In this document: positions 70 to 58,813 of the stretch, in pieces
Numbering within the stretch: the first letter of the stretch is position 1
How the letters are laid out: the number at the start of each line of letters is the position of its first letter
Source of the DNA: Malacoraja senta
Lineage: Eukaryota
Assembly: GCA_038087875.1 (NCBI GenBank)
Contig: CM075995.1
Coordinates: 746,001-809,812, forward strand
Length of the DNA stretch: 63,812 nucleotides
Direction: 5' to 3'
The notes under the pieces: model-generated
What the model was told of the DNA's origin: nothing
Seen by the model: only the letters and a program-made list of their open reading frames with translations
Databases searched by the model: none
Translations under genes and position numbers: made by a program

Positions 70-269
70 NNNNNNNNNNNNNNNNNNNNNNNNNNNNNNN
101 NNNNNNNNNNNNNNNNNNNNNNNNNNNNNNNNNNNNNNNNNNNNNNNNNNNNNNNNNNNNNNNNNNNNNNNNNNNNNNNNNNNNNNNNNNNNNNNNNNNN
201 NNNNNNNNNNNNNNNNNNNNNNNNNNNNNNNNNNNNNNNNNNNNNNNNNNNNNNNNNNNNNNNNNNNNN
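70..269. other. Assembly gap (200 N)
   Basis: Run of 200 N; ORFs spanning it are artefacts. Confidence 0.99.
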
Positions 270-18559: not shown

Positions 18560-19440
18560 TCTGTATTAAATTCCATCAACCATTCCTCAGCCCACCCGGC
18601 CAATCGATCAAGATCCTACTACAACCATCTTCACTATCTACAATACCACCCAATTTAATGTCATCAGCAAATTTGCTAATCATGCCATGTACGTTCTCAT
18701 TCAAATCATTGATGTAGATGACAAACAGTAACGGGCCCAGCACCAAACCCTGAGTCACAGGCATCCAGTCGGAAAAGCAATTTTCCACCAACACACTCTG
18801 CTTCCTTCCATGAAACCAATTTTCTATCCATTCAACGATCTCTCCTTGGATCCTGTGCAAACTAACCTTCCAGAGCAGCCTCCCATGCGTAACCTTGTCG
18901 AATATTTTGCTGAAATCTGTGTATACAACATCTACAGCTCCACCTTTATCAACCTTGTTGGTCTTCAAAAAACTCAATCAGATTCGTGAGACACAATCTC
19001 CCACGTACAAAACCATGCATGTGTATCTTACCCCTCAGAATATTCTCTGGTAACTTTCCGACCACAGATGATAGACTCACTGGCATGTAGTTCACAGGCT
19101 TTTCCCTGCAGCCCATCTTAAATAAAGGCACAACATTTGCCACCCTCCAGTCTTCCGGCACCTCTCCTGTACCTAATGATGACTCATAAATCTCAGCCAG
19201 GGCTCCTGTAATTTCCTCTCTAGTTTCCCACAATGTCCTTGGATATATCTGATCAGGCCCGGAAGATTTGTCTACCTTCAAACATGTTAGGACCTTCAGC
19301 ATCTCCTCGACTATAATACTGACTGCTCTCAAGACACTTCAATTGAATTGAATTGAATTGAATTGAATATTTTATTGACTGCCCCAAGTTCCTCCGTACT
19401 CCTGTCTTTGTCCTCGGTAAAAAAAGAGGAGAAATACTTT
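18560..19440 (-). mobile_element. CR1 LINE RT-domain fragment (frameshifted)
   Basis: KSSGPDQIYPR.L.E, EDWRVANVVPLFK, DVVY.DFSK.FDKV.H, LGPLLF.IYINDL, KFADD motifs. Confidence 0.92.
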
Positions 19441-22720: not shown

Positions 22721-23136
22721 AAATGTAAGTTATGCACTTATGAATTTATATAAAGGCAATTCTTTCTTTCTCTACTTGGGAGCACAAAGAATATTTTGCA
22801 TTTCCCAGTCAATTTTTTTTTTTAGCATTACCATCTGTTTGCATCGTTTTATTTTTCTACTGAAGTGTTGCAGCATCCTGTGGCAAAATTATCTCAGCTT
22901 GTTTAAAATTCAAGCAGCATAAACCAGCCACCCACTCCACTCTCCACCCACTGCCTGGGCAAAGCTGTGCTAATCCAGCCGTGATGTCGGCCTTTCTCCA
23001 ACTGTGTGGAAAAGTAGCTCAGGTACAGCTCTTTTAGTTTCAGTTCAGAGATACAGCGTGGAAACAGGCCCTTCGGCCCACCGAGTCCGTGCCGACCACC
23101 AATCACCCACTCACAGTAGTTCAATGCTAATTTATC

Positions 23137-23280
23137 GGCGGCACAGTAACGCAGCGGTAGAGTTGCTGCCTTGCAGCGCCAGGGACCCCGGTTCGAGTCT
23201 GACTATGGTCGCTGTCTCTATGGAGTTTGTACGTTGGCCCCGTGACCGTGTGAGTTTTCTCCGGGTGCACCAGTTTTCTC
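23137..23280 (+). mobile_element. HE1-type SINE, 5' half (3' half resumes at 25291-25455)
   Basis: SINE sequence breaks at CCAGTTTTCTC and resumes with the same 11-mer at 25291 followed by CCACACTCCAAAGAC. Confidence 0.88.
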
Positions 23281-23282
23281 TC

Positions 23283-24052
23283 ATAGATACATAGATACAT
23301 AGAAAATAGGTGCAGGAGTAGGCCATTCGGCCCTTCGAGCCTGCACCGCCATTCAATATGATCATGGCTGATCATCCAACTCAGTATCCCGTACCTGCCT
23401 TCTCTCCATACCCCCTGATCCCTTTAGCCACAAGGGCCACATCTAACTCCCTCTTAAATATAGCCAATGAACTGGCCTCAACTACCCTCTGTGGCAGAGA
23501 GTTCCAGAGATTCACCACTCTCTGTGTAAAAAAGTTTTTCCTCATCTCGGTCTTAAAGGATTTCCCCCTTATCCTTAAGCTGTGAACCCTTGTCCTGGAC
23601 TTCCCCAACATCGGGAACAATCTTCCTGCATCTAGCCTGTCCAACCCCATAAGAATTTTGTACGTTTCTATAAGATCCCCTCTCAATCTCCTAAATTCTA
23701 GCGAGTATAAGCCAAGTCTATCCAGTCTTTCTTCATATGAAAGTCCTGACATCCTAGGAATCAGTCTGGTGAACCTTCTCTGCACTCCCTCTATGGCTAT
23801 AATGTCCTTCCTCAGATTTGGAGACCAAAACTGTACGCAATACTCCAGGTGTGGTCTCACCAAGACCATGTACAACTGCAGTAGAACCTCCCTGCTCCTA
23901 TACTCAAATCCTTTTGCTATGAAAGCTAACATACCATTCGCTTTCTTCACTGCCTGCTGCACCTGCATGCCTACTTTCAATGAGTGGTGTACCATGACAC
24001 CCAGGTCTCGCTGCATCTCCCCTTTTCCTAATCGGCCACCATTTAGATAATA
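23283..24052 (-). mobile_element. Young CR1 LINE 3' fragment, part of the composite insertion
   Basis: Open 211-aa frame QRDLGV..GYGEKAGTGY*, 3' UTR and (CTATGTAT)n tail. Confidence 0.95.
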
Positions 24053-24500
24053 TTTTTTTTATCATACGCCAGGCTTTATTCCGCATGGTTGCTATTAGCT
24101 TCTTTTTCTCTTCCACTTCTTCCAAAACCTTGGCAAGTTCCCCCTCTGACAGAGAATCTTCACTGTCTGATGAATCTGATGATGAGCTGGAGGATTTGCC
24201 TTTCTTTTTTCCATTACGTCTTTCGCCCTTCTTATCACCTTTCTTGGTTCCTTGTTTTTCCTTCTTATTATCTTCATCTTTCTGCTTCTTGTTCACATTG
24301 TTTCTATTATTACCGTGGGCTGGGGTCCTTTTTGATTTCGCATTTCTTCCCTTTGGTTCACTGTCATTGTCACTTTCTTCCTTTCTGTTATTCCTATTGT
24401 TTCTTGCTTTTACCCTTGAATTTTTAGCTCCCCCTTTTTTGCTTTCCACTTCTTCTTCATCATCGTCATCTTCTTCTTCGTCACTTTCATGGCCTCTATT
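24053..24500 (-). pseudogene. tmc2: Captured fragment of a TMC2-like (transmembrane channel-like) N-terminal coding sequence
   Basis: Open frame ..GHESDEEEDDDDEEEVESKK..KKKGKSSSSSSDSSDSEDSLSEGELAKVLEEVEEKKKLIATMRNKAWRMIKK closely matches recalled TMC2 (SLSEEELAQILEQVEEKKKLIATMRSKPWPMAKK); no splice donor, fused directly to CR1. Confidence 0.82.
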
Positions 24501-25289
24501 GAGTCACGGCACCCCTTTGCCACGCAAGCCCAAGAGCTGCTCTGCACAACACCGGCTGACGCTTCTAAGGCCGCCTGGGTCAAGACGAGATGGAGAGACC
24601 AGTGGAAGTCAGCGGAACCATCTAGGCTACACCAGTACATCGATAATAATAATAATAATAATGGATTGGATTTATATAGCGCCTTTCTAATACTCAAGGC
24701 GCTTTACATCGCATTATTCATTCACTCCTCAGTCACACTCGGTGGTGGTGAGCTACTTCTGTAGCCACAGCTGCCCTGGGGCAGACTGACGGAAGCGTGG
24801 CTGCTAATCTGCGCCCACGGCCCCTCCGACCACCACCAATCACTCATACACATTCACACACATTCACACGCAGGCAAAGGTGGGTGTAGTGTCTTGCCCA
24901 AGGACACAACGACAGTATGCACTCCAAGCGGGATTCGAACCAGCTACCTTCCGGTTGCCAGCCGAACACTTAGCCCATTGCGCCATCTGTCGTCCGCATG
25001 ACCCCATGGACGTCCCTGGCCAGGACCTGCCCCGAAAGCAGTGGACAACCCTCAACCGCTTGAGGACAGGCATCGGACGCTATGCAGTAGCGATGAAGAG
25101 GTGGGGCCTCGTGGACAGCGCCTCCTGCGAGTGTGGGAACCCAACACAGACAGTGGAGCACATCGGCACCAGTTGTCCCAAACACCGGCCACCGAATGGT
25201 GAACGAGGTCTGATTGACCCGGACGATGACACGTTGGCCTGGCTCCCCTCAACGGAGCTGCAGGTCTAAAAGACATACGACAGAAGAAG
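24501..25289 (+). mobile_element. Vingi/Ingi-related LINE 3' fragment, interrupted by a SINE
   Basis: SRHPF..W..QW..YID|DPMDVPGQDLPRKQWTTLNRLRTGIGR..WG..CECGNPTQTVEHIGTSC (CCHC finger), stop, very short 3' UTR CATACGACAGAAGAAG. Confidence 0.72.
24644..24997 (-). mobile_element. tRNA-derived CORE-like SINE with L2-type 3' tail
   Basis: Reverse complement: A box TGGCGCAATGG, B box GGTTCGAATCC, core-like TGTGTCCTTGGGCAAGACAC, tail TGTAAAGCGCCTTGAG..AAAGGCGCTATATAAAT and (ATT)n. Confidence 0.85.
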
Positions 25290-26215
25290 TCCAGTTTTCT
25301 CCCACACTCCAAAGACGTACAGGTTTGTAGGTTAATTGGCTTCGGTAAAATTGCCCCTAGTGTGTAGGATAATGTTAGTGTACGGGTTGACCGCTGGTCG
25401 GCGCGGACTCAGTGGGCCGAAGAGCCTGTTTCCGCACTGAATCTCTCAAATCTAAAATCTGAAAGTATAGTTATCCCATTTTCGCATCCACTCCCTACAC
25501 ACTCGGGGCGGTTGTGCAGTGGCCAATGAACCCACAAACCAACACGTTTTTGGCATTGGGTGGAAACCGGAGCACCTGCGGGAAATCCGCCCGGACACAG
25601 GCGGCAACTCTACCGCTGCGCCACCCTGCTGCAATAGTTGAAGCAGGTACTATATCAACATTTAAAAGACCGAGGGTGATGGTGGAAGGTGTAGGAAGGA
25701 ACAGCAGATGCTGGTTTAAACCAAAGATAGACACAAAATGCTGGAGTAACACAGTTACTGTGGGACAGGCGGCGGCTCTGGAGAAAAGGAAGGTCTTCGC
25801 CATTGTTAGAGTGAGGCTAAACACAAATTGGAGGAACAGCACCTCATATTTTGCACGGGCAGCTTACAACCCAGTGGTATGAATATTGATTTCTCTAACT
25901 TCAAGTAACCCCGGCATTCCATCTCCCTCCATTCCTCCCCCACCCAATCTGCACCAGCTTCTCGTTCTCACCCAGCAAACAACTAACAATGGCCTGTTTC
26001 CTTTATCATCGTTATTTTGTTGTTGTTCTATATCTCTCTACATCATTGTCTATACCTCGTTTCCCTTTCCTGTGACTTTCAGTCTGAAGAAAGGTCTCGA
26101 CCCGAAACGTCACCCATTCCTTCTCTCCAGAGATGCTGCCTGTCCCGCTGAGTTACTCCAGCTTTTTGTGTCTATCTTTGGGTGCTGGTGGAAGGTTGTT
26201 TTTCGGACTGGAGGC

Positions 26216-27245
26216 AATAGACAATAGACAATAGGTGCAGGAGTAGGCCATTCGGCCCTTTGAGCTAGCACCGCCATTCAATGTGATCATGGCTGATCAT
26301 CCCCAATCAGTACCCCTTTCCTGCCTTCTCCCCATATCCCCTGACTCCGCTATTTTTCAGAGCCCTATCTAGCTCTCTCTTGAAAGCATCCAGAGAACTG
26401 GCCTCCACCATCCTCTGAGACAGAGAATTCCACAGACTCACAACTCTCTGTGAGAAAAAGTGTTTCCTCGTCTCCGTTCCAACTGGCTTACCCTTTATTC
26501 TTAAACTGTGGCCCCTGGTTCTGGATTCCCCCAACATCGGGAACATGTTTCCTGCCTCTAGTGTGTCCAAACCCTTAACAATCTTATATGTTTCAATAAG
26601 ATTCCCTCTCATCCTTCTAAACTCCAGAGTGTACAAGCCCAGCTGCTCCATTCTCTCAGCATATGACAGTCCCGCCATCCCGGGAATTAACCTTGTAAAC
26701 CTACGCTGCACTCCCTCAATAGCAAGAATGTCCTTCCTCAAATTAGGGGACCAGAACTGCACACAATACTCCAGGTGTGGTCTCACTAGGGCCCTGTACA
26801 ACTGCAGAAGGACCTCTTTGCTCCTATACTCAACTCCTTGTTATGGAGGCCAACATGCCATTCGCTTTCTTCACTGCCTGCTGTACCTGCATGCTTACTT
26901 TCATAGACTGATGAACAAGGACCCCCAGATCCCCTTGTACTTCCCCTTTTACCAACTTGACGCCATTTAGATAATAATCTGCCTTCCTGTTTTTTATACC
27001 AAAGTGGATAACCTCACATTTATCCACACTAAACTTCATCTGCCATGCATCTGCCCACTCCCCCAAAATGTCCAAGTCACCCTGCATTCTCATAGCATCC
27101 TCCTCACAGTTCACACTGCCACCCAGCTTTGTGTCATCTGCAAATTTGCTAATGTTACTTTGAATCCCTTCATCCAAATCATTGATATATATTGTAAATA
27201 GCAGCGGTCCCAGCACTGAGCCTTGCTGTACCCCGCTAGACACAG
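26216..27245 (-). mobile_element. CR1 LINE 3' 1-kb fragment (RT C-terminal half)
   Basis: SGV.QGSVLGPLLF.IYINDL..KFADDTK..W.M.F..DKC through GYGEKAG; (CTATTGT)n tail. Confidence 0.95.
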
Positions 27246-33250: not shown

Positions 33251-34975
33251 TTCCCCCTTTCCAGTTTAAATGTCCCCATTTGGCTGGACCTTGCTTCGCT
33301 CTTTTTTTTCATCCTTTTTTGCGTTTCACAACTCTTGCTAAAGGCTCAGAATCTACTCTTTTGAAGAGATATCAGTATTTGCTTTATTTGTATGCTGTTC
33401 TTTCTCCACATGGCTGTAGTTTTTCTCGGCGGTCGTCAGCCCTTTGGATGTGAACGCAATTGGTTCTTCCTTGCCGTTTGGTGCCGTTTGTGAGATTACA
33501 GCTCCAAGACCATACGGCGATGCATCGGCGGCCAGCGAGATCGGCTTCGAAAGGTCATAGTGGACCAAACGCGTGAATGCATGGTCACACTCTTTGGACC
33601 AGTGCCATTCGACGTCCTGTTTTCGCAGGTTGTTCACGCACTTGCTGACCATGTTGCAATCTGTGGTAGATGACAATGCCATAGTTGATCCATCGTAGAT
33701 CAAGGCACTCATGTCAAGCTTGAAAGCTTGGATCCAGTCAATGGCGCACAGGGATGTACCGTCTTTACCAACGACGATCAGCGGCAACATCTGTGTCATA
33801 CCATTACAGGAAACGGCGACAGTGCATTTGCCTTTTGTGGGAATGGGCTGTCGTCCGTATCCAAAAAGGCGGATGTTGGCCGGTTTCAGTTTCGGCGATC
33901 CGATCCTCTCCCAGATGTCCTGACCCACTAGCGACACAGCCGCACCAGTGCCCACCTGGAACTGTAGATCGACGTTCGAGACCCGCAGCGAAATCCTCGG
34001 CTTGTCGGTGATCGTGGACACACCGAGCACTTCAATAGAAATGGTCTCCGCGATTTGGTCGACTGTGTTTTGCGCTTTCTTGCCCTTTCTCCGCTGTCCT
34101 ACGGATTGACACACTGCCTGGAGACGACCTTTTCTGTAACAGGCATAACAAACAAACGGACTCGATATACGGGCACACGATGATGATGAGCAGTCGAGCC
34201 GCACCGGTAGCAGGGTTTCGATCCTCCCCCCACAGGGGGACGGCTCTTCTGAAACTGTCCCACCTTCTCAGGATTCGCTCTGGGTCGATCAACTCGTTTC
34301 TGGCGTTGCGGACGAGTCTGACGAACTGTATGCACCTCCTGAGGGAGCTTCGACGCTGTTTCGCCGGCCATTCTGCGCAGTTCTTTACTCAGCAGCTCGG
34401 CCATCTTCGCACACTGCAGCACATTCTTCAATGAGGCATCCGATTCCTTGAGAATCACCTGCTGGATGAATGCGTGCCTGCAGCCTATGACCAGTCTATC
34501 CCACAACGCATTGTCTTGACACTTTTCGTAGCATTGAGTTATAAAATCACACGCCTTTGCCTTGGTGCGAAGTTTGGCAAGAAATTCGGTATCGATTGCC
34601 CTTCCTGTTGCACCATCCTGTAGAAATCATAGCGAGCTGCGAGGAAATTTCCACTTTCTTCGAAATGCAGCTGCAAAGCCGTTGTGATTTCAGCACATGA
34701 GGCTTCAGTTACTTCTTCTGTAAGTACATTTTGAAGCAGTGAGACATTGATGAACACAAGAGAGCCTTCTTCCTCTGGTCAGTCGTAATTGCCATACTTT
34801 CAAAATATAACTCGGCGCGCATTAAATACGACGACCACCTTTCTCACTCGGGATCGAAACGATTGAATTGCCGAGACATGTTAGTTTGAGTACACTACAG
34901 AACTAAAAAAATATATATATATTTTTTTAATTGTAAATTAGGCTCTTATCTGGGTCTTTGGATGCAATCCGAAGT

Positions 34976-39255: not shown

Positions 39256-39500
39256 AGAACTGCAGACGCTAGTTTACAAGAGAAGGCACAAAGTGCTGGA
39301 GTAACTCAGCCGGTTCGGGAGCATCTCTGGGGAAACAGAACTGCAGGGGCTAGTTTACAAGAGAAGGCACAAAGTGCTGGAGTAACTCAGCCGGTTCGGG
39401 AGCATCTCTGGGGAAACAGAACTGCAGAGGCTAGTTTACAAGAGAAGGCACAAAGTGCCAGAGTAACTCGGCGGGTCAGGGAGCATCTCTGGGGAACAGG
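39256..39500. repeat. 81-bp tandem repeat x3 derived from the Penelope pLTR end
   Basis: AGAACTGCAG recurs at 39256, 39337 and 39418. Confidence 0.85.
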
Positions 39501-46865: not shown

Positions 46866-47244
46866 AATAATAATAATAATAATAATAATGGATGGGATTT
46901 ATATAGCGCCTTTCCAATACTCAAGGCGCTTTACATCGCATTATTCATTCACTCCTCAGTCACACTCGGTGGTGGTGAGCTACTTCTGTAGCCACAGCTG
47001 CCCTGGGGCAGACTGATGGAAGCGTGGCTGCTAATTTGCGCCTACGGCCCCTCCGACCACCACCAATCACTGACACACATTCACACACATTCACACACAT
47101 TCATACACATTCACACGCAGGCAAAGGTGGGTGAAGTGTCTTGCCCAAGGACACAACGACAGTATGCACTCCAAGCGGGATTCGAACCGGCTACCTTCCG
47201 GTTGCCAGCCGAACACTTAGCCCATTGCGCCATCTGTCGTCTGC
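46866..47244 (-). mobile_element. tRNA-derived CORE-like SINE with L2-type tail (second copy)
   Basis: Nearly identical to 24644-24997. Confidence 0.85.
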
Positions 47245-48329
47245 ACCTTAAATATATCCATGGACTTGGCCTCCACAGCCGGACCAAATGGACGCCTGTC
47301 CCTATCCGAGATTCAAAGGAAGATATCCTGTGATTCAGTGAGTGTTTGGGGTGCACTCTGGCGAGAGCCCCAGTTGGTCACAGAGCATGAAGCAGAGGTC
47401 CTGAAGACCAGGCCACATTGGCAAAGGAAAAAGGGCTGGACAAGGGTGAAGGAAGGAAGGAAGGAAGGAACCTGTAGATGCTGGTTTATACCGAAGATAG
47501 ACTCAAAATGCTGGAGTAACCCGGCGGGACGGGCAGCATCCCTGGAGAAAAGGAATCGGTGACATTTCGTGTCGGGACCTTTCTTCGGGACAAGGGTTCT
47601 GGCCAAGATTTCTGTTCGGCAGGGTGGCGCAACTGGGTGAGAATTAAATGACATTCCTCAAGGAAGGAGATGAGAAGAACGAGAAGAAATGGTGAATTTG
47701 TGGAATTCTTTGCCACAGAAGGCAGTGGAGGCAGTCAATGGATATTTTTGAGGCAAAGATAGATAGATTCTTGATTAGTCAGGGTGTTGGTGGTTATGGG
47801 GAGAAAGGAGATGATTGGGGTTAGGAGGGAGAGATAGATCAGCCATGATTGAATGGCAGAGTAGACATAGAGTGATACAGTGTGGAAACAGGCCCTTCGG
47901 CCCAATTCGCCCACCCTGGCCAGCTTGACGGGCCGAATGGCCTAATTCTGCTCCTATCACTTATGAACTTATAGTTGGCTCCAGAAGCGTTGACATGATG
48001 AAGCTGCTCGACTTCCACCACAGAAGGGTATACTCCGGGCTTGACAAGATGTAACTCTAATCTAAACCAAACCATCGTAAGCCCCCACAAGATGAATTTG
48101 TTTCTTCGATAAAGGAAACTTCACATCCTTACCTCGTCACATCTATATTGTTTTGAATTCCACGTTCGATTTTTAATCTGCTATGCTTACACTACAATCG
48201 CAGAGTCAAAGAGTCATACAGCGCAGAAACAGGCCCTTCAGCTCAACATTCCCACGCCGACCAACATGCCCCATCCACACATGTCCCAAATTATTGTACT
48301 CTTATGCTTATGTAACATACAAACATATA

Positions 48330-49635
48330 AAAAATAGAAAATAGTTGCAGGAGCCGGCCATTTGGCCCTTCGAGCCAGCACCGCCATTTAATATGATCGT
48401 GGTTGATCATCCACAATCAGTACCCCGTTCCTGCTTTCTCCCCATATCCCTAGATTCCGTTAGTCCTGAGCTATATATAACTTTTGCTTGAAAACATCCA
48501 GTGAATTGGCCTCCACTGCCTTCTGTGGCAGAGAATCCCTCAGATTCACAACTCTCTGGGTGAAAAGTTTTTCCTCATCTCAGTCCTAAATGGCCTACCC
48601 CTTATTCTTACACTGCGACCCCTGGTTCTGGACTCCCCCAACATCGGGAACATTTTTCCTGCATCGAGCCTGTCCAATCCCTTAAGTATCTTATATGTTT
48701 CTATAAGAGCCCCTCTCATCCTGCTAAATTCCAGTGACTACAAGTCCAGTCGATCCATTCTTTCATCATATGTCTGTCCTGCCATCCCGGGAATTAACCT
48801 GGTGAACCTACGCTGCACTCCCTCAATAGCAAGAACGTCCTTCCTCAAATTAGGAAACAAAAACTGCACGCAATACTCCAGGTGCGGTCTCAGCAGGGCC
48901 CTGTACAACTGCAGTAGGACCTCCTTCCTCCTAAACTGAAATCTTCTCGCTATGAAGGCCAGCATGCCATTTTCTTTCTTCATTGCCTGCTGTACCTGCA
49001 TGTTTACTTTCAGTGACTGATGTACAAGCACACCCAGGTCTCGTTGCTCCTCTTCTCCTAATCTGACACCATTCAGATAATAATCTTCCTTCCTGTTCTT
49101 GCCATCAAAATGGATAACCTCACATTTATCCGCATTAAACTGCATCTGCCATGCATCTGCCCACTCACCCAACCTATCCAAGTCACCCTGCAGCCTCATA
49201 GCATCCTCCTCGCAGCTTACACTGCCACCCAGCTTTGTGTCATCCGCAAACTTGGAGATGTTAAGTCTAAACCTTAGTCTAAATCGTTAATATATTTTGT
49301 AAATAACTGGGGTCCCAGCACCGAGCCTTGCGGCACCCCACTAGTCACTGCCTGCCATTCTGAAAAGGACCCGTTAATTCCTACTCTTTGCTTCCTGTCT
49401 GCCAACTAGTTCTCTATCCATGTCAATACCCTACCCCCAACATTTGCGCACTAATCTCTTGTGTGGGACCTTGTCAAAGGCTTTTTGAAAGTCCAGATAC
49501 ACCACATCCACTGGCTCTCCCTTATCCATTCTACTTGTTACATCCTCAAAAAATTCCAGAAGATTAGTCAAGCATGATGTCCCCTTCATACATCCATGCT
49601 GACTTTGACCGATCCTGTCACTGCTTTCCAAATGC
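48330..49635 (-). mobile_element. CR1 LINE 1.3-kb 3' fragment (RT domain)
   Basis: SQHG..KG.SCLTNLLEFFE..DVVYLDFQKAFDKVPH; W.MQFNADKC; QRRFTRLIPG. Confidence 0.95.
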
Positions 49636-51467
49636 ATGATTGCACTAACGTATAGTATGATTATACTAATTTTATTTTTAGTTTAGAGATACAAAGCGGA
49701 AACAGGCCCTTCGGCCCATCAAGTCCGCCCCAACCAGCGATCCCCGCACACTAACACTATTCTACACAGACTAGCGACAATTAGCAATTCTACCAAGCCA
49801 ATTAACCTACAAACTTGTACGTCTTTGGAATGTGGGAGGAAATTGGAGCACCCGGAGAAAACCCACGCAGGTCGTGGGGAAAACGTGCAAACTCCGAACA
49901 GACAGCACCCGTGGTCAGGAATGAACACGGGACTCTGGAGCTGTATGGCAGCAGCTCTACCGCTGGGCCGGCCTACCCAATTGAATGCAAAACAAAGAAC
50001 TTCACTACATCTAAATGACTGTGCCAATAAAGTATCGTTGAACTATGGATTATTGATCTTGGTGTTATAATTGAAGAAGGGTTTTGATCGGAAATGTTGT
50101 CTATTTCCTTCGCTCCATAGATGCTGCCTCACCCGCTGAGATTCTCCAGCATTTTTGTTTACCTGTTATAATTCACTCAGCTGTTTTGTAAACGCCATTT
50201 AGCAATATTAAAAGCTGGTTAATCACAACAATAGTGATGAACAATGAAATGCCCTCCTTTGTTTAGCACATGAAATGAGTTGTTAGGTTTAGATGGCATC
50301 AATATTCAATAGTTTAGTTTAGTTTAGAGATACAGTGCGGAAACACGCCCTTCGGCCCACCGGGTCCGCGCCGACCAGCACATTTACACTATCCTACACG
50401 CACCAGGGACAATTTGCACTTACACCATGTATACAAACCCAAGCCAATTAGCCTACAAACCTGGACGTCTTTGGAGTGTGGGAGGGAACCGAAGATCTCG
50501 GAGAAAACACACGCAGGTCGCGGGGAGAACGTGCAGACTCCGTACTGACAGCGCCCGTAGTCGGGATCGAACCGGCGCTGTGAGAGCTGTAAGGCACCAA
50601 CTCTACCGCTACGCCGCCCTAAATAGTTTGGTTCTCTAAAGAATTCAGAACATTTCCTCAAGGGAGGTTAATGAGGAGGAAAAGAATTTAATTCCTCAAC
50701 ATGACTGTTGCAAGATCTGCCAGTGAACAGCCATTATTGTCCAAGGAGGCCATCGCAATGGATTGGAATTGGTCTGTTCTGTTCTTTCAGCATGGATGCC
50801 CTTCAGAACACCAGGTTATGCATTGGTCAAAGAGCTTACCAATGTTATTTTGCTACTTAGTTTAGTTTAGTTTCGAGATACAGCGCGGAAACAGGCCCTT
50901 CGACCCATCGGGTCCGGGCCGACCAGCGATCCCCGTACACACTGGCTCCGTCCCACACACCAGGGACAATAGTACAACTATTTTACTGGCCAATTAACTT
51001 ACAAACCTGTCCGTCTTTGGAGTGTGGGAGGCCCCGGGAAAAACGCACGTGGTCACGGGGAGAACGTACAAACTCCGTACATGACAGCAGCTGTAGTCAA
51101 GATCGAACCAGGATCTCTGGCGTTGTGAGGCAGCAACTCTACTGCTCTGCCACCGTGCCGCCCCCACCATTAATTCCGTCCACACATCCCACCGCCTCAG
51201 AAAAGCAGCCAAATGAATCAAAGACTTGTCCCTTCCCGGCTCCCGTCCGGGAGCACAGAAGCTTGAAAGCGCGCAACACCAGACTCAGGAACAGCTTCTT
51301 CCCCTCTGCTATCAGGCTTCTGAACGGTCCTTCCATGAGCTAGGGTACTGTCTCGATTCACCTCGACCCCAATATGGGCTAGAGTGCACCACAATGCTGA
51401 CATTGGGGAGTAGGGGAATCGAGGACCAGAGGACATTGGTTCAAGGTGAAGGGGAAAAGATTTAATA

Positions 51468-54006: not shown

Positions 54007-56044
54007 AGGGGCTGTCCCACTTGGGCAACCTAATCTGCGAGTTTAGAAGAGTGTCTTCGACCTTCAAACTTGCAGCGTGGTCCTAGGAGGTCCTATGAGG
54101 TTGTTGGATCTCTCCTTCATGCTCGAGGGAAGTTCCCGAAAACTCGTGTCCTCGCGAAAAAATTTTCAGCATGTTGAAAAAATTTCTGGGAGTAAAATTT
54201 GGTCGGCATGGTTCTTTTTGACTCGTAGTGCAGTGGAGTGGGGTTGCTATTTAGTTACAGGCAGTCGAGGGCAGCCGTAGGCAATCTCCTTCGCTGACCG
54301 GGAATTTTGATTGGCTCATTGGAGTTTTCAGGACCAGGGAAAACCGACCGTTAATGCTAAATGCCTGCTAAACTTTATTATCTATATTACTAAAAGTCTG
54401 TTCTTGACCACTTCCTGTTGTTCTGTATATTGATTTCAGAAAAAACGCTGCCACGTACGGCTGTGATTTTTGGCCATCTTACTCAGAGTCCCCATCCGCT
54501 GTGTAGGACAAGAGGATTTTTCCCATCGATGAAAAATAAAAGAGTTTTTAGTGTTTAAAAAATGTTGAGATTCTCTCTCCTGAAGGCCACGCCCCTTCCG
54601 GAGGGACTATAAAACCCGGAAGTGTTCAGTGCCTCAGTCAGTCTCTGCAAGATGGGGGAAGCGAGAAGGTCACGTCTCTCAGTCTGAGCTGTGAATAACA
54701 CTGAACACATGTCTACTAAACTGTGAGTGCTTTTACTGACCTGTCAGTGCCCTTAATGTGGTTTAAAAATATTGTTTGAAAATGCTAAAGCTGTGTTGCC
54801 TTCGTTTTGGAAATGCTAAAACTGTGTTGCCTTTGGTTTGGAAATGCTAAAGTTGCCTTGCCTAATTAAAGTTGCCTTGCCTAATTAAAGTTGCCTTGCC
54901 TAATTAAAGTTGCCTTGCCTAATTAAAGTTGCCTTGCCTTCTATATAATTAAAAGTCTAATCTTGACCACTTCCTGTTTGCGCTTTATATTGATTTTAGA
55001 AAAAACGCTACCACGTACGGCTGAGATTTTTGGCCATCTTACTCAGAGTCCCCCTCCGCTCATCAGGTGCCGAGGATTTTTCCCATCGATGAAAAATAAA
55101 AGAGTTATTAGTGTTTAAAAAATGTTGAGATTCTCTCTCCTGTCAATCATGCCATGAAGGCCACGCCCATTCTGGTGGGAGGGGGGAGGGACTATAAAAC
55201 CCAGAAGTGTGGGCGTGGCTCAGTCTCTGCAAGATGGAGGAGGGAGAGGTCATGACTTGCTGTCTTTAGTGGCCTTGCACCCTGCTTGAAATGGTATCAA
55301 ACTGCACTTGAATTTGTTGGCCTTGCACCCTGCTTGAAGTGGTAAGAAACTGCACTTGAATTTGGTGGCCTTGCACCCTGCTTGAAATGGAATTTCAAGA
55401 AATAGCCGTGTCAACTGCCAGCCCACCTGCCGTGAGTGAGTGAGCTGCCAGCACAACAGGCTTGAGTGACTGAGCCGCCAGCCCAAGAATCCATTCGGCC
55501 CACAATGTCCATACTAGCCCTCTGGAAACCAGTCCCTTCAGCCCACAACACCCATACTAGCGATCCAGAAAGCACCCCACACCCACTGGCCACCAATATT
55601 GGAATTGGTGGAGGTGTAATATTGCGTTGGGGGACCAGCCCTCCCATGTGATGCTGGGACCCAATGGGTCCCACTTAGTCTAGTACTTCTTAAAACCTTC
55701 TCCCCCCCTTCTTCCCCCCCCCTTCTCCCCCCCCCCTTCTCCCCCCCTTCTCCCCCCCCTTCTCTCCCCCCCTTCTCCCCCCCCTCCCTCCGAGCTCTCT
55801 AAAGGACTTACCGTAAAGTGTGGCAGCCGTTTACCTTCCTCTTCATCGCACAGACAGCGCTCCCCCGCTTTCCCTGGCCCTCGCCTTTGCGATGTGTTTG
55901 GGTGGGTGTGTGCGATCCAGCTCGCGGTTTCAACGCAGACGGGTCGATCGAGCTTGAGGTTTTCCAGACGAGTGCCCTCGAGCTTGAAGGTCGAAGACAC
56001 TCTTCTTAACTCGCGGATTAGGTCGCGCAAGTGGGACAGCCCCT
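54007..56044. mobile_element. PIF/Harbinger-like MITE containing a nested Helitron
   Basis: TIR AGGGGCTGTCCCACTTG..CAAGTGGGACAGCCCCT, TAA/TGA flanks. Confidence 0.78.
54381..55683 (+). mobile_element. Non-autonomous Helitron
   Basis: 5' TC (TCTATATTACTAAAAG), 3' hairpin GGGACCCA-A-TGGGTCCC then CTAG, inserted between A and T without TSD; duplicated internal 5' end at ~54940. Confidence 0.85.
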
Positions 56045-56856
56045 TGAAGTCGCAGGGTTTACCGGTAGTGAATGAGATTTTCAATTGGTGACAATAATCT
56101 TCAAATGGGATCAACGCTCCCAATCTGATTTGAGGTTGTGATAGATAGGTTTGTTGATAAGTACTGCTGCTTTACAAATGAATTACCCACAAGAAGAGAA
56201 TGTATTTCACCCCAGATTATCTCTGTAAACGAACTTTCACCCCCCCACCCCCTCCCCCAGAAAAAAACATTCTAAATTTAGAAATGATTCACGAACCTTA
56301 CTATACGATTGAACAGGAGGGAGATTGGTCGGCCAACAGTCATAAAACACAAGATACATGAAACATGGAGTTAGTGACGAGTGGGAAGTCCGGGATTGGG
56401 GATGTGCAAAGATTGGGGAGGGGGTGTGGGGGAAGGGAGGAGGTGGAAGGGGAGTCACAGTCTACCCCACGACAGAAGGGGGAGGAGTTGTACAACTTGA
56501 TAGCAACAGGGAAAAAGGGTCTAAACACAAAACTGAAATATTTTATTTCAAAGGGAAAACAATGAAAATACCAAAAAGGACAAAGAATTGCTGACACATA
56601 CGATGTACACAGTGGAGTCCTACAGCACAAAAATGGGCCCTTCAGACAACTTGCCTATGTTGACCACAATGCCCCATCTACACTTGCCACACCTGCCTGC
56701 ATTTGGCCCATGTCCCTCTAAACTACTCCCATCCATGCATCCGTCCAAATGTCTTTTAAATGTTATGGTACCTGCCTCAGCTGCCTCCTCTGGCAGCTCA
56801 TTCCATATACCCACCACCCTTAAATGTGTCAAAAAGTTGCCCCTCACGTCTATCTA

Positions 56857-58813
56857 TCTATATACTTTTAAAACTCTGTGTGTGTGGGTGTATGTCATCT
56901 ATCTATATTACTAAAAGTAAGATCTTGACCGCTTTTGACTCACTGCAATGCGATTTCCGAGAGAACGCCACTACTTATGGCCGTCATTTTTGGCCAACTC
57001 ACTCAGAGCCCCCCTCCTGCACTGGAGGATTTCTCCCATCGATGAAAAATCAGGGAGATATTAATGTTTTAAAATTGTTTGCCATTCTCTCTGCTGCCCC
57101 TGCTGGTGGGAGGGGGGAGGGACTATAAAACCCGGAAGTGGTGTGCCTCACTCAGTCTCTGCAAGATGGAGTTAGCGAGAGGGTCTCTCTGAGCTCTGAA
57201 TAACACTGAACACATGTCTACTCAACTGTGAGTGCCCTTAATGTGGTTTGAAATTAAATATATGGTTGGGTTGAAGCACTGCAAATGGTTGATTGGGCTG
57301 TTTTGGGTTGAAGTAAAAAGACACTGCAAATGGCTGTTTGGGGGTGTTTTGGATTGAAGTAAAAAGGCACTGCAAATGGCTGTTTGGGGGTGTTTTGGGT
57401 TGAAGTAAAAAGGCACTGCAAATGGTTGTTTGGGGGTGTTTTAGGTTGAAGTAAAAAGGCACTGCAAATGGTTGTTTGGGGTGTTTTGGGTTGAAGTAAA
57501 AAGGCACTGCAAATGGTTGTTTGGGGGTGTTTTGGGTCGAAGTAAAAAGGCACTGCAAATGGTTGTTTGGGGTGTTTTGGGTCGAAGTAAAAAGGCACTG
57601 CAAATGGTTGTTTGGGGGTGTTTTGGGTTGAAGTAAAAAGGCACTGCAAATGGTTGTTTGGGGTGTTTTGGGTGGAAGCAAAAAGGCACTGCAAATGGTT
57701 GTTTGGGGGATTTTTGGGTTGAAGTGAAAAGGCACTGAAAAGGGTTGTTTGGGGGGGTTTGGGTTGAAGTGATAAGGCACCGCAAAGGGTTGTTTAGTTT
57801 TTTTGGGGTTGAAGTGAAAAGGCACTGCAGATGGTTGCTTGGGGGTTTGGGTTGAAGTGAAAAGGCACCTCAGATGGTTGCTTGGGGGTTTTGGGTTGAA
57901 GTAAAAGGCACTGCAAATAGTTATTTGTCTAAACTTGACAACTTCCTGTTTGCACTGTATTGATTTTAGATAAAACGCTACCACTTACGGCTGTGATTTT
58001 TGACCATCTTACTCAGTCTCCCTCCGCTCATCAGGTGCGGAGGATTCTTCCCATCAATGAAAAATAAAAATGTTATTAATGTTTTAAAAATGTTGAGAAT
58101 CTCTCTCCTGTCAATCACGCCATGAAGGCCACTCCTTTTCGGGTGGGGGAGGGATTATAAAACCCGGAAGTGTGGGTGTGGCTCAGTCTCTGCATGATGG
58201 GGAGTGAGAGGTCATGACTCTGTCTGAGCTGTGAATCAACTGAACACAATGAATGTCTACTAAACTGTGTGTGGTGTTTTGTGTGGTTTTATGGTGGTTT
58301 CACCCTGCTTGAAATGGTATGAAACTGCATTTGATTTCTGGGTGTCGTTGCACCCTGCATGAAATGGTATGAAACTGCACTTGAATTTTGTGGCCTTGCA
58401 CCCTGCTCGAAGTGGTAAGAAACAGCACTTGAATTTGGTGGCCTTGCATCCTGCTTGAAATGGTAGGAAAATGGATTTGAATTTGGTGGCCTTGCACTCT
58501 GCTTGAAATGGAATTTCAAGGAATAACCGTGAGTCAACTGCCAGCCCACCCGCTGTGAGTGAGCTGCCAGCACATCAGGCTTGAGGGACTGAGCTGCCAC
58601 TCAAAAAATCCATTTGGCCCACAATGTCCATACTAGCCCTCTAGTGACCAGTAGTCTCTGCAGCCAACAACACCCATACCAGCGCTCCAGAAAGCCCCCC
58701 CCCCTCCCCCCCACTGGCCACCAAAATTGGAATTGGTGGAGAGATGGAATATTGCGACGAGGGACCAGCCCTCCTGTGTGAACATGGGACCCAATGGGTC
58801 CCACTTAGTCTAG
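56857..58813 (+). mobile_element. Composite non-autonomous Helitron with internal minisatellite
   Basis: Two 5' TCTATAT starts (56857 and ~56902); same 3' hairpin plus CTAG. Confidence 0.83.
57265..57920. repeat. 45-46-bp minisatellite, ~14 copies
   Basis: Unit TTTTGGGTTGAAGTAAAAAGGCACTGCAAATGGTTGTTTGGGG(G)TG. Confidence 0.93.

What the first reader, a model, noticed from the sequence alone, without database searches (positions are those of the whole stretch)
24053..24500. Apparently spliced fragment of the mechanotransduction channel gene TMC2 outside its locus
Seen: a stop-free ~150-codon frame with the SLSEGELAKVLEEVEEKKKLIATMRNKAW motif, no splice donor, and no further TMC exons recognisable in the window. 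From memory, human TMC2 has an intron between the Lys/Arg-rich block and the SSS..SLSEEEL block; here KKKGK-SSSSSS is continuous, which suggests an mRNA origin. Inference: TMC2 mRNA was present in the germline or early embryo, which is notable for a hair-cell gene. The intact frame suggests a recent event.
Basis: partly seen in the sequence, partly recalled or inferred. Interest (0 to 1): 0.7.

Follow-up and report, generated by a model that had tools for sequence, protein, structure and literature searches.

The report
Young spliced TMC2 scrap in skate
In a skate genome, a short piece of the messenger RNA for the hearing-channel gene TMC2 was recently copied back into DNA and sits fused to the tail of a jumping gene; it makes no protein, but it may show how such genomes copy ordinary genes.

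Summary
Window 24062-24501 (minus strand) is 440 nt of skate tmc2 (92% aa identity to Leucoraja TMC2; TMC2 clade in a tree). In DNA runs of two related species it falls on two separate contigs that break at 24187/24189 and run on into unrelated sequence, so an intron is missing here. It differs from the species' own gene at one seen site (24084), so it is young. It is cut inside exons at both ends and has no usable start codon.

Downstream come T+A8, 13 nt after an AATAAA, and then a 5'-truncated CR1-type LINE in the same orientation. Upstream lies a second, opposite LINE. The whole 2-kb block splits a tRNA-SINE and is flanked by an 11-bp duplication.

Best reading (0.55): CR1 reverse transcriptase jumped onto a prematurely polyadenylated tmc2 RNA. 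Main rival (0.3): a later separate cDNA insertion at the LINE-LINE junction. Germline tmc2 RNA is implied but unsurprising, since mouse Tmc2 transcripts are reported in testis. Retrocopies are common in cartilaginous fish; the interest lies in the route.

The parts
23128..23280 (+). Left half of a tRNA-type SINE (the target that was split)
   Evidence: Matches many window copies over 23128-23283, and those copies continue with the sequence found at 25290 onward. The family label is recalled.
23270..23280 (+). Left copy of an 11-bp target-site duplication, CCAGTTTTCTC
   Evidence: Longest word shared by the two flanks. 0 of 11 other SINE copies found in the window carry this word at that position.
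23282..24052 (-). 3' 770 nt of a 5'-truncated CR1-type LINE: microsatellite tail at about 23282-23300, stop-free ORF2 C-terminus at 24052-23384
   Evidence: About 79-80% identical to window copies at 26217-26976 and 48316-49082. The former continues upstream into RVT_1, E 3e-12. Contigs of other copies leave the window at 24052 in all 4 runs. The clade name CR1 is recalled, not tested by a tree.
24053..24061 (-). Nine-base linker, T followed by eight A; probable poly(A) remnant
   Evidence: Sequence. It departs from the parent's K-R-K-L codons. X3's exon contig has 3 differing letters in 24054-24189, one of them 24084; the other two are inferred to lie at 24061 and 24058.
24062..24186 (-). First 125 nt of the downstream tmc2 exon (Ser run to ...NKAWRM), cut before the exon's end
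   Evidence: X3 record 18, X8 record 26, X1 record 4; protein alignment.
24075..24080 (-). AATAAA hexamer, 13 nt before the T+A8 linker; candidate cryptic poly(A) signal
   Evidence: The only AATAAA/ATTAAA in the 440 nt. Codon shuffles place one in a comparable position in 6.6% of 20,000 trials.
24084..24084 (-). The one seen substitution against the parent gene (Ile to Met)
   Evidence: T in X2, X3 and X8; both T (22.2) and the window's C (18.9) in X1.
24187..24501 (-). Last 315 nt of the upstream Lys/Arg/Asp-rich tmc2 exon, starting mid-exon
   Evidence: X1 record 5 (0 differences), X3 record 19 and X8 record 27 (9 differences each). The parent protein continues N-terminally.
24502..24642 (+). 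Second LINE (Vingi/Ingi-like by recall), piece 1; its 5'-truncated end abuts the tmc2 piece head to head
   Evidence: 79% identical to residues 89-136 of P0166.
24643..24998 (-). tRNA-headed SINE nested inside the second LINE
   Evidence: 92% identical to the window copy at 46870-47245. Weak tRNA match at 24927-24986, below the gathering score. The LINE's reading resumes on the other side.
24999..25290 (+). Second LINE, piece 2: ORF C-terminus with a CCHC-like motif, and 3' end
   Evidence: 78% identical to residues 138-226 of P0166. Atlas neighbours include 'reverse transcriptase family protein' and zf-RVT on 12% of members.
25291..25301 (+). Right copy of the 11-bp target-site duplication
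25291..25460 (+). Right half of the split SINE

Best explanation
This is a dead-on-arrival, very young retro-fragment of tmc2, made as a LINE chimera. Shown: the piece is spliced tmc2 sequence, cut mid-exon at both ends, lying directly 5' of a 5'-truncated CR1-type LINE in the same orientation and joined to it by T+A8. Inferred steps: (1) a tmc2 transcript in the germline or early embryo was spliced and then cleaved and polyadenylated early, at the exonic AATAAA. (2) A CR1 ribonucleoprotein nicked the target and copied about 770 nt of its own RNA from the tail. (3) The reverse transcriptase jumped onto the A-tailed 3' end of the tmc2 RNA and copied 440 nt. (4) The cDNA end was joined to the truncated 5' end of the second LINE. 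That LINE was either already there and had made the 11-bp duplication, or was primed from the other strand in the same event. No protein is expected: a stop codon precedes the frame, the first in-frame ATG lies 8 codons before the end of the tmc2 part, and the frame is out of phase with the CR1 ORF.
For: Exon-exon junction: separate genomic contigs in 2 of 2 laid relatives' runs, with a 3-letter CAG overlap, against a continuous annotated protein. X1's contigs end exactly at 24187 and 24189 and it carries both letters at 24084, as expected if it holds parent and spliced copy. The order cellular RNA, then truncated LINE, same strand, LINE tail intact, is the template-switch layout (PMC4476161 passages). 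Stringent LINEs make such copies only as chimeras (same paper), CR1 is said to need its own 3' sequence (PMC5470649), and CR1 template switching to a tRNA has been proposed (PMC5729268). The tmc2 piece has no duplication of its own. At least two mismatches to the parent in the 9-nt linker would arise by point mutation with p 0.0002-0.005. The 4 CR1 rows shown carry letters shared with part of the family (1.4-53% of X1 depth is not the majority letter), which fits a young copy.
Against: The 11-bp duplication encloses the second LINE too, so the CR1-tmc2 unit is not flanked by its own duplication. If that LINE is older, the CR1 nick had to fall within a few bases of its junction. The CR1's age is not pinned down: only 40 of 120 difference rows were shown, and 12 of 167 ORF columns differ from diverged window copies. 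The T before the A-run is unexplained by simple polyadenylation, the parent is itself A-rich there, and the AATAAA placement has a 6.6% chance level. No contig spanning the splice joint or either LINE junction was among the 32 pieces shown; 594,294 were not shown. No allele lacking the insert was observed.
Confidence: 0.55

Rival explanations
1. Later, separate insertion. The CR1 and the second LINE already sat head to head, and tmc2 cDNA entered at their junction afterwards, either poly(A)-primed by a relaxed LINE (L1/Tx1 type) or as an RNA-templated patch of a double-strand break, with loss of target bases and no duplication.
For: An A-run at the 3' end is what poly(A)-primed insertion leaves. 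The second LINE looks older than the tmc2 piece: 6 near-private letters shown in 290 nt plus a nested SINE, against 1 in 440 (Poisson p 0.001). So the block may have been built in steps. The junctions show little or no microhomology.
Against: No duplication flanks the tmc2 piece. It would need to land exactly between two 5'-truncated ends. Its orientation matches the CR1, whose shown differences fit a young subfamily.
Confidence: 0.3
2. Secondary copy or somatic event: the piece was copied from another tmc2 retrocopy elsewhere, or arose in a somatic lineage of the sequenced animal and says nothing about the germline.
For: No whole genome was available to count copies. The window's letter at 24084 was seen in only 1 of 4 laid runs.
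Against: In X1 the copy's letter is about as deep as the parent's (18.9 against 22.2), which suits a constitutional insertion, although the tool warns that depth is not a copy number. There is only one seen difference from the parent.
Confidence: 0.08
3. Assembly artefact or cDNA contamination.
For: X1 may be the sample from which the window was assembled, so it is not independent. Junction-spanning contigs were not displayed.
Against: An 11-bp duplication with two shared departures from other SINE copies frames the block. X1's read-derived contigs break exactly at the splice joint, where those of X3 and X8 do not, and they hold the copy's letter.
Confidence: 0.04
4. DNA-level capture of a genomic exon, or the genuine tmc2 locus disrupted by repeats.
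For: The piece is nearly identical to the gene.
Against: It joins two exons that are separated by at least 0.8 kb in relatives. No other TMC exon lies in the window. X1 holds an intact parent contig continuing 591 nt upstream.
Confidence: 0.02

Closest known systems
Template-switch chimeras of a cellular RNA and a 5'-truncated LINE (U6-L1, U6-L2, U6-RTE; Doucet et al. 2015, PMC4476161, passages read)
   Same: Cellular RNA 5' of a truncated LINE, same orientation, LINE tail intact.
   Different: The passenger is a spliced protein-coding mRNA piece, not a snRNA. The LINE is CR1-type; that paper found one unresolved U6-CR1 case, in turkey. The duplication encloses a second, opposite LINE.
Processed pseudogenes / retroCNVs (review PMC5470649; bioRxiv 10.64898/2026.06.26.734816, 14,081 retrocopies in cartilaginous fishes; passages read)
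   Same: Intron loss, 5' truncation, A-run, near-identity to the parent.
   Different: Ends inside the coding region rather than at the mRNA's 3' end, has no duplication of its own, and is fused to a LINE tail.
Twin-priming chimeras with two RNAs in opposite orientation (U5/L1, U1/L1, U2/L1; PMC4476161)
   Same: Two oppositely oriented copies, 3' ends outward, inside one target-site duplication.
   Different: Here the two outer parts are different LINE families with an mRNA piece between them, and the second LINE appears older than the tmc2 piece.
PittSINE origin by CR1 template switching to a tRNA (PMC5729268, passages read)
   Same: A CR1 tail acquires a new 5' head during reverse transcription.
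   Different: The head here is promoterless mRNA, so no amplification is expected.

Membership tests
Processed retrocopy | Intron missing at an exon-exon junction | tested here: met
   separate contigs in X3 and X8 break at 24187/24189; intron letters not displayed
Processed retrocopy | Poly(A) tail | tested here: inconclusive
   T+A8, 13 nt after AATAAA; 6.6% chance placement; the parent is A-rich there
Processed retrocopy | Own target-site duplication | tested here: not met
   No repeat flanks 24053-24501; the 11-bp duplication flanks the whole block 23281-25290
Processed retrocopy | Located away from the parent locus | tested here: inconclusive
   No other TMC exon in 63.8 kb; no genome to map against
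LINE template-switch chimera | Cellular RNA directly 5' of a 5'-truncated LINE, same strand, LINE tail intact | tested here: met
LINE template-switch chimera | RNA plus LINE flanked as one unit by a duplication | tested here: not met
   The duplication also encloses a second LINE
LINE template-switch chimera | Both parts of the same age and absent together from the empty site | tested here: inconclusive
   40 of 120 difference rows and 15 joints shown; orthologous empty site not identifiable
TMC2 orthologue (parent) | Groups with TMC2, not TMC1 | tested here: met
   18-protein tree: the chondrichthyan proteins lie in the TMC2 clade, 100/100, apart from two TMC1-named rows; a third TMC1-named row (Cyprinodon) fell among TMC2-B. 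No TMC3 outgroup and no skate TMC1 in the tree.
CR1 clade (downstream LINE) | 3' part of an RT-encoding LINE with a microsatellite tail | tested here: met
CR1 clade (downstream LINE) | RT phylogeny places it in CR1 | not tested
   Label recalled. CR1-group elements make up 22-34% of elasmobranch genomes (PMC13343379).
Vingi/Ingi clade (upstream LINE) | RT phylogeny or match to a named consensus | not testable with these tools
   Homologues found are unnamed; atlas gives only an RT-family lead; label recalled
Polymorphic retrocopy (retroCNV) | Present in some individuals, absent in others | tested here: inconclusive
   X2 is low-depth, and contigs cannot show absence

The most novel reading that the evidence does not exclude
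One retrotransposition event used both strands of a staggered cut and three RNAs. On one strand, CR1 reverse transcriptase copied its own tail and then jumped onto a tmc2 RNA that had been polyadenylated early inside a coding exon. On the other strand, an RNA of a different LINE family was primed. The result would still segregate in the species. More broadly, CR1 template jumps onto A-tailed mRNAs would be a main route to retrocopies in sharks and rays, and the germline would make a short tmc2 isoform ending in this exon.
Probability: 0.15. Interest if true: 0.7.

Novelty: new variant of a known kind. Interest (0 to 1): 0.42.

Why it matters
The fragment itself is almost certainly inert. Its value is as a fresh footprint. 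CR1 is thought unable to copy ordinary mRNAs (PMC5470649), yet cartilaginous fishes hold thousands of retrocopies, and a recent preprint links them to CR1 or Tx1 by correlation with element content (passages read). An mRNA fused to a CR1 tail would give a concrete route, testable genome-wide by asking what fraction of young shark and ray retrocopies end in a CR1 3' tail. It also predicts an early poly(A) site in skate tmc2, and low-level tmc2 transcription in germ cells or early embryos.

Tried and rejected
No whole genome is held for this window, so the parent locus could not be read directly.

Run X2 (second sample of organism A) showed only the parent's letter at 24084, at depth 6. Its word share of 0.78 equals the parent-only expectation of 0.77. 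Contigs cannot show absence, so this is only a hint at polymorphism. Zygosity in X1 could not be settled: the extra depth came out at about 0.5 to 1.7 of the parent or flank, depending on the baseline. The 15 joints and 24 loose ends displayed came from repeat copies; neither the intron's letters nor the orthologous empty site could be read.

A metagenome scan for the parent exons found nothing among 591 pattern matches. A PDB search gave only a weak TMC1-CIB2 hit, E 0.13. Pfam on 141 frames (137 of the 165 non-repeat frames of 50 aa or more, plus 4 from the block) showed only RT/RNase H hits and three sub-threshold matches: no host gene. Rfam gave nothing above gathering score. The bacterial promoter scan is irrelevant to a vertebrate. 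Dating the CR1 from window copies failed because they belong to other subfamilies. The atlas gave no family name for the CR1 frame. Three look-ups of earlier findings returned nothing. The primary source for Tmc2 in testis (Keresztes 2003) is not held.

Rejected: the open frame as a sign of selection (a copy this young needs none), and a TMC-CR1 fusion protein (frames out of phase, no start codon).

Full report
What is there. The window is repeat-rich (62% matches itself) and comes from a skate-like genome; no host gene was found in 141 frames scanned. Its best protein matches are TMC2 of Leucoraja erinacea (92%) and Rhinoraja longicauda (91%), then sharks at 55-65%. The match covers L. erinacea residues 67-216, and nothing else in the window matches the 942-residue protein credibly. 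The channel region of that protein finds tetrapod TMC2 at 75-77% and TMC1-named proteins at 71-72%. An 18-protein tree puts it in the TMC2 clade at 100/100; that tree lacks a skate TMC1 and a TMC3 outgroup.

It is spliced. Four public runs were laid on 22750-25650. In X3 (organism B) and X8 (organism E) the fragment falls on two different contigs. One covers 24187-24501 and runs on 838 nt (X3) or 819 nt (X8) beyond 24187 in unlike sequence. The other covers 24054-24189 and runs on 469 or 492 nt beyond 24189. The two overlap by CAG, as expected when an exon and an intron both end in CAG. I read the coordinates of minus-strand records from three flank records that run off the stretch's left end. 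The annotated proteins are continuous across this point. A bamboo-shark gene model starts its homology at about this point (P0019), which fits an exon boundary. So an intron of at least 0.8 kb lies between 24187 and 24186, 8 nt into the Ser run. The intron's letters were not among the rows displayed.

It is young and is in the reads. In X1 (organism A; unique flank identical to the window), contigs match 24187-24501 and 24085-24189 with no difference and end exactly at the joint, where the relatives' contigs run on. At 24084, X1 holds both the parent's T (22.2) and the window's C (18.9); X2, X3 and X8 show T only. That is 1 seen difference in 440 nt, whereas the unique flank differs from B by 10 substitutions in 313 nt and from E by 17 in 322. 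X1 may be the window's own source, so it argues against misassembly but is not an independent animal. No junction-spanning contig was among the 32 pieces shown.

The setting. Both ends are cut inside exons. On the minus strand the piece is followed by T and eight A (24061-24053), 13 nt after the only AATAAA in the fragment (6.6% by codon shuffling). Then come 770 nt of a LINE 3' end on the same strand, with an open ORF C-terminus and a microsatellite tail. A related window copy continues into an RT domain; I call the element CR1 from recall. Upstream, at 24502, begins the truncated 5' end of a different LINE on the plus strand. Its reading (78-79% identical to P0166) is interrupted by a nested SINE at 24643-24998; 'Vingi-like' is recalled. 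The whole block, 23281-25290, splits a tRNA-type SINE and is framed by CCAGTTTTCTC on both sides, a word that 0 of 11 other copies in the window carry there.

How it most likely arose. RNA piece, A-run, truncated LINE with intact tail, all on one strand, is the layout of template-switch chimeras. Doucet et al. report these for L1, L2 and RTE with U6, say that stringent LINEs make U6 copies only this way, and found one unresolved U6-CR1 case (PMC4476161, passages). CR1 is said to require its own 3' sequence (PMC5470649, passages; stringent recognition in PMC3747384, passages). CR1 template switching to a tRNA has been proposed (PMC5729268, passages), and template jumping is described for R2 (PMC2912911, passages; also PMC4494074, passages). 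I give 0.55 to a CR1 jump onto an early-polyadenylated tmc2 RNA.

The weak point is the second LINE. Six rows in its last 290 nt show letters that 98.8-100% of X1's family depth does not share, and it carries a nested SINE; so it looks older than the tmc2 piece (p 0.001). The four CR1 rows shown are shared with 1.4-53% of the family depth. Only 40 of 120 rows were displayed, and a protein-level comparison with window copies (12 of 167 columns differ) could not date the CR1. Either the CR1-tmc2 unit landed at the older LINE's junction, or both strands of one cut were primed, or tmc2 cDNA arrived separately at a ready-made junction (0.3).

Function. None is expected. A stop precedes the frame, the first in-frame ATG is the copy's own substitution near the end, and the frame is out of phase with the CR1 ORF.

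Germline expression. An inherited copy needs tmc2 RNA in germ cells or early embryos; this is inference, and inheritance was not shown. [quoted passage not shown] Tmc1 mRNA is reported there too (PMC7920537; PMC7554986). Against strong expression, only Tmc5 and Tmc7 are elevated in developing mouse testis (PMC11398861, passage). Low-level transcription is enough.

Novelty. Retrocopies are plentiful in cartilaginous fishes (14,081; 95.7% species-specific; bioRxiv 10.64898/2026.06.26.734816, passages; supplements closed). CR1-group elements fill 22-34% of elasmobranch genomes (PMC13343379, passages). Searches listed no tmc2 retrocopy (none of the 15 papers listed of 718 mentions tmc2), and the passages I read gave no mRNA-CR1 chimera; most subscription papers are outside the library. 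Tan et al. (PMC5131818, seen only in the search listing) frame the driver of retroposition outside mammals as open. Verdict: a real, young, spliced, inert fragment; a new variant of the LINE chimera kind if the CR1 link holds; interest 0.42.

Noticed in passing
window 24643-24998 and 46870-47245: The nested SINE family is very deep in runs of organisms A and B but nearly absent from organism E at 90% likeness, which suggests a recent lineage-specific burst or a horizontal arrival.
   Followed up: partly
window 24502-24642 and 24999-25290: The second LINE's nearest atlas clusters are mostly arthropod where a phylum is known, and its closest protein matches are unnamed at 63-78%; it has no other copy in the window.
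   Followed up: partly
window 33356-34267 (-): A 304-codon frame with RT-associated RNase H domains, a probable LTR retrotransposon remnant.
   Followed up: no
window 18579-18977 (-) and 49434-49682 (-): Reverse-transcriptase fragments of further LINE families.
   Followed up: no
window 54774-58511: A cluster of minisatellites with periods of 19-48 nt, including 14 copies of a 46-nt unit at 57276-57927 and a 48-nt unit seen at both 55265 and 58301.
   Followed up: no
window 39256-39496: Three tandem copies of an 81-nt unit, 94% alike.
   Followed up: no
window 70-269: A run of 200 N: an assembly gap near the window's start.
   Followed up: no
proteins P0044, P0059, P0060, P0019: A Cyprinodon protein named TMC1 groups with TMC2-B, and several ray and shark TMC2 models lack the long acidic/basic N-terminal exon.
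   Followed up: partly
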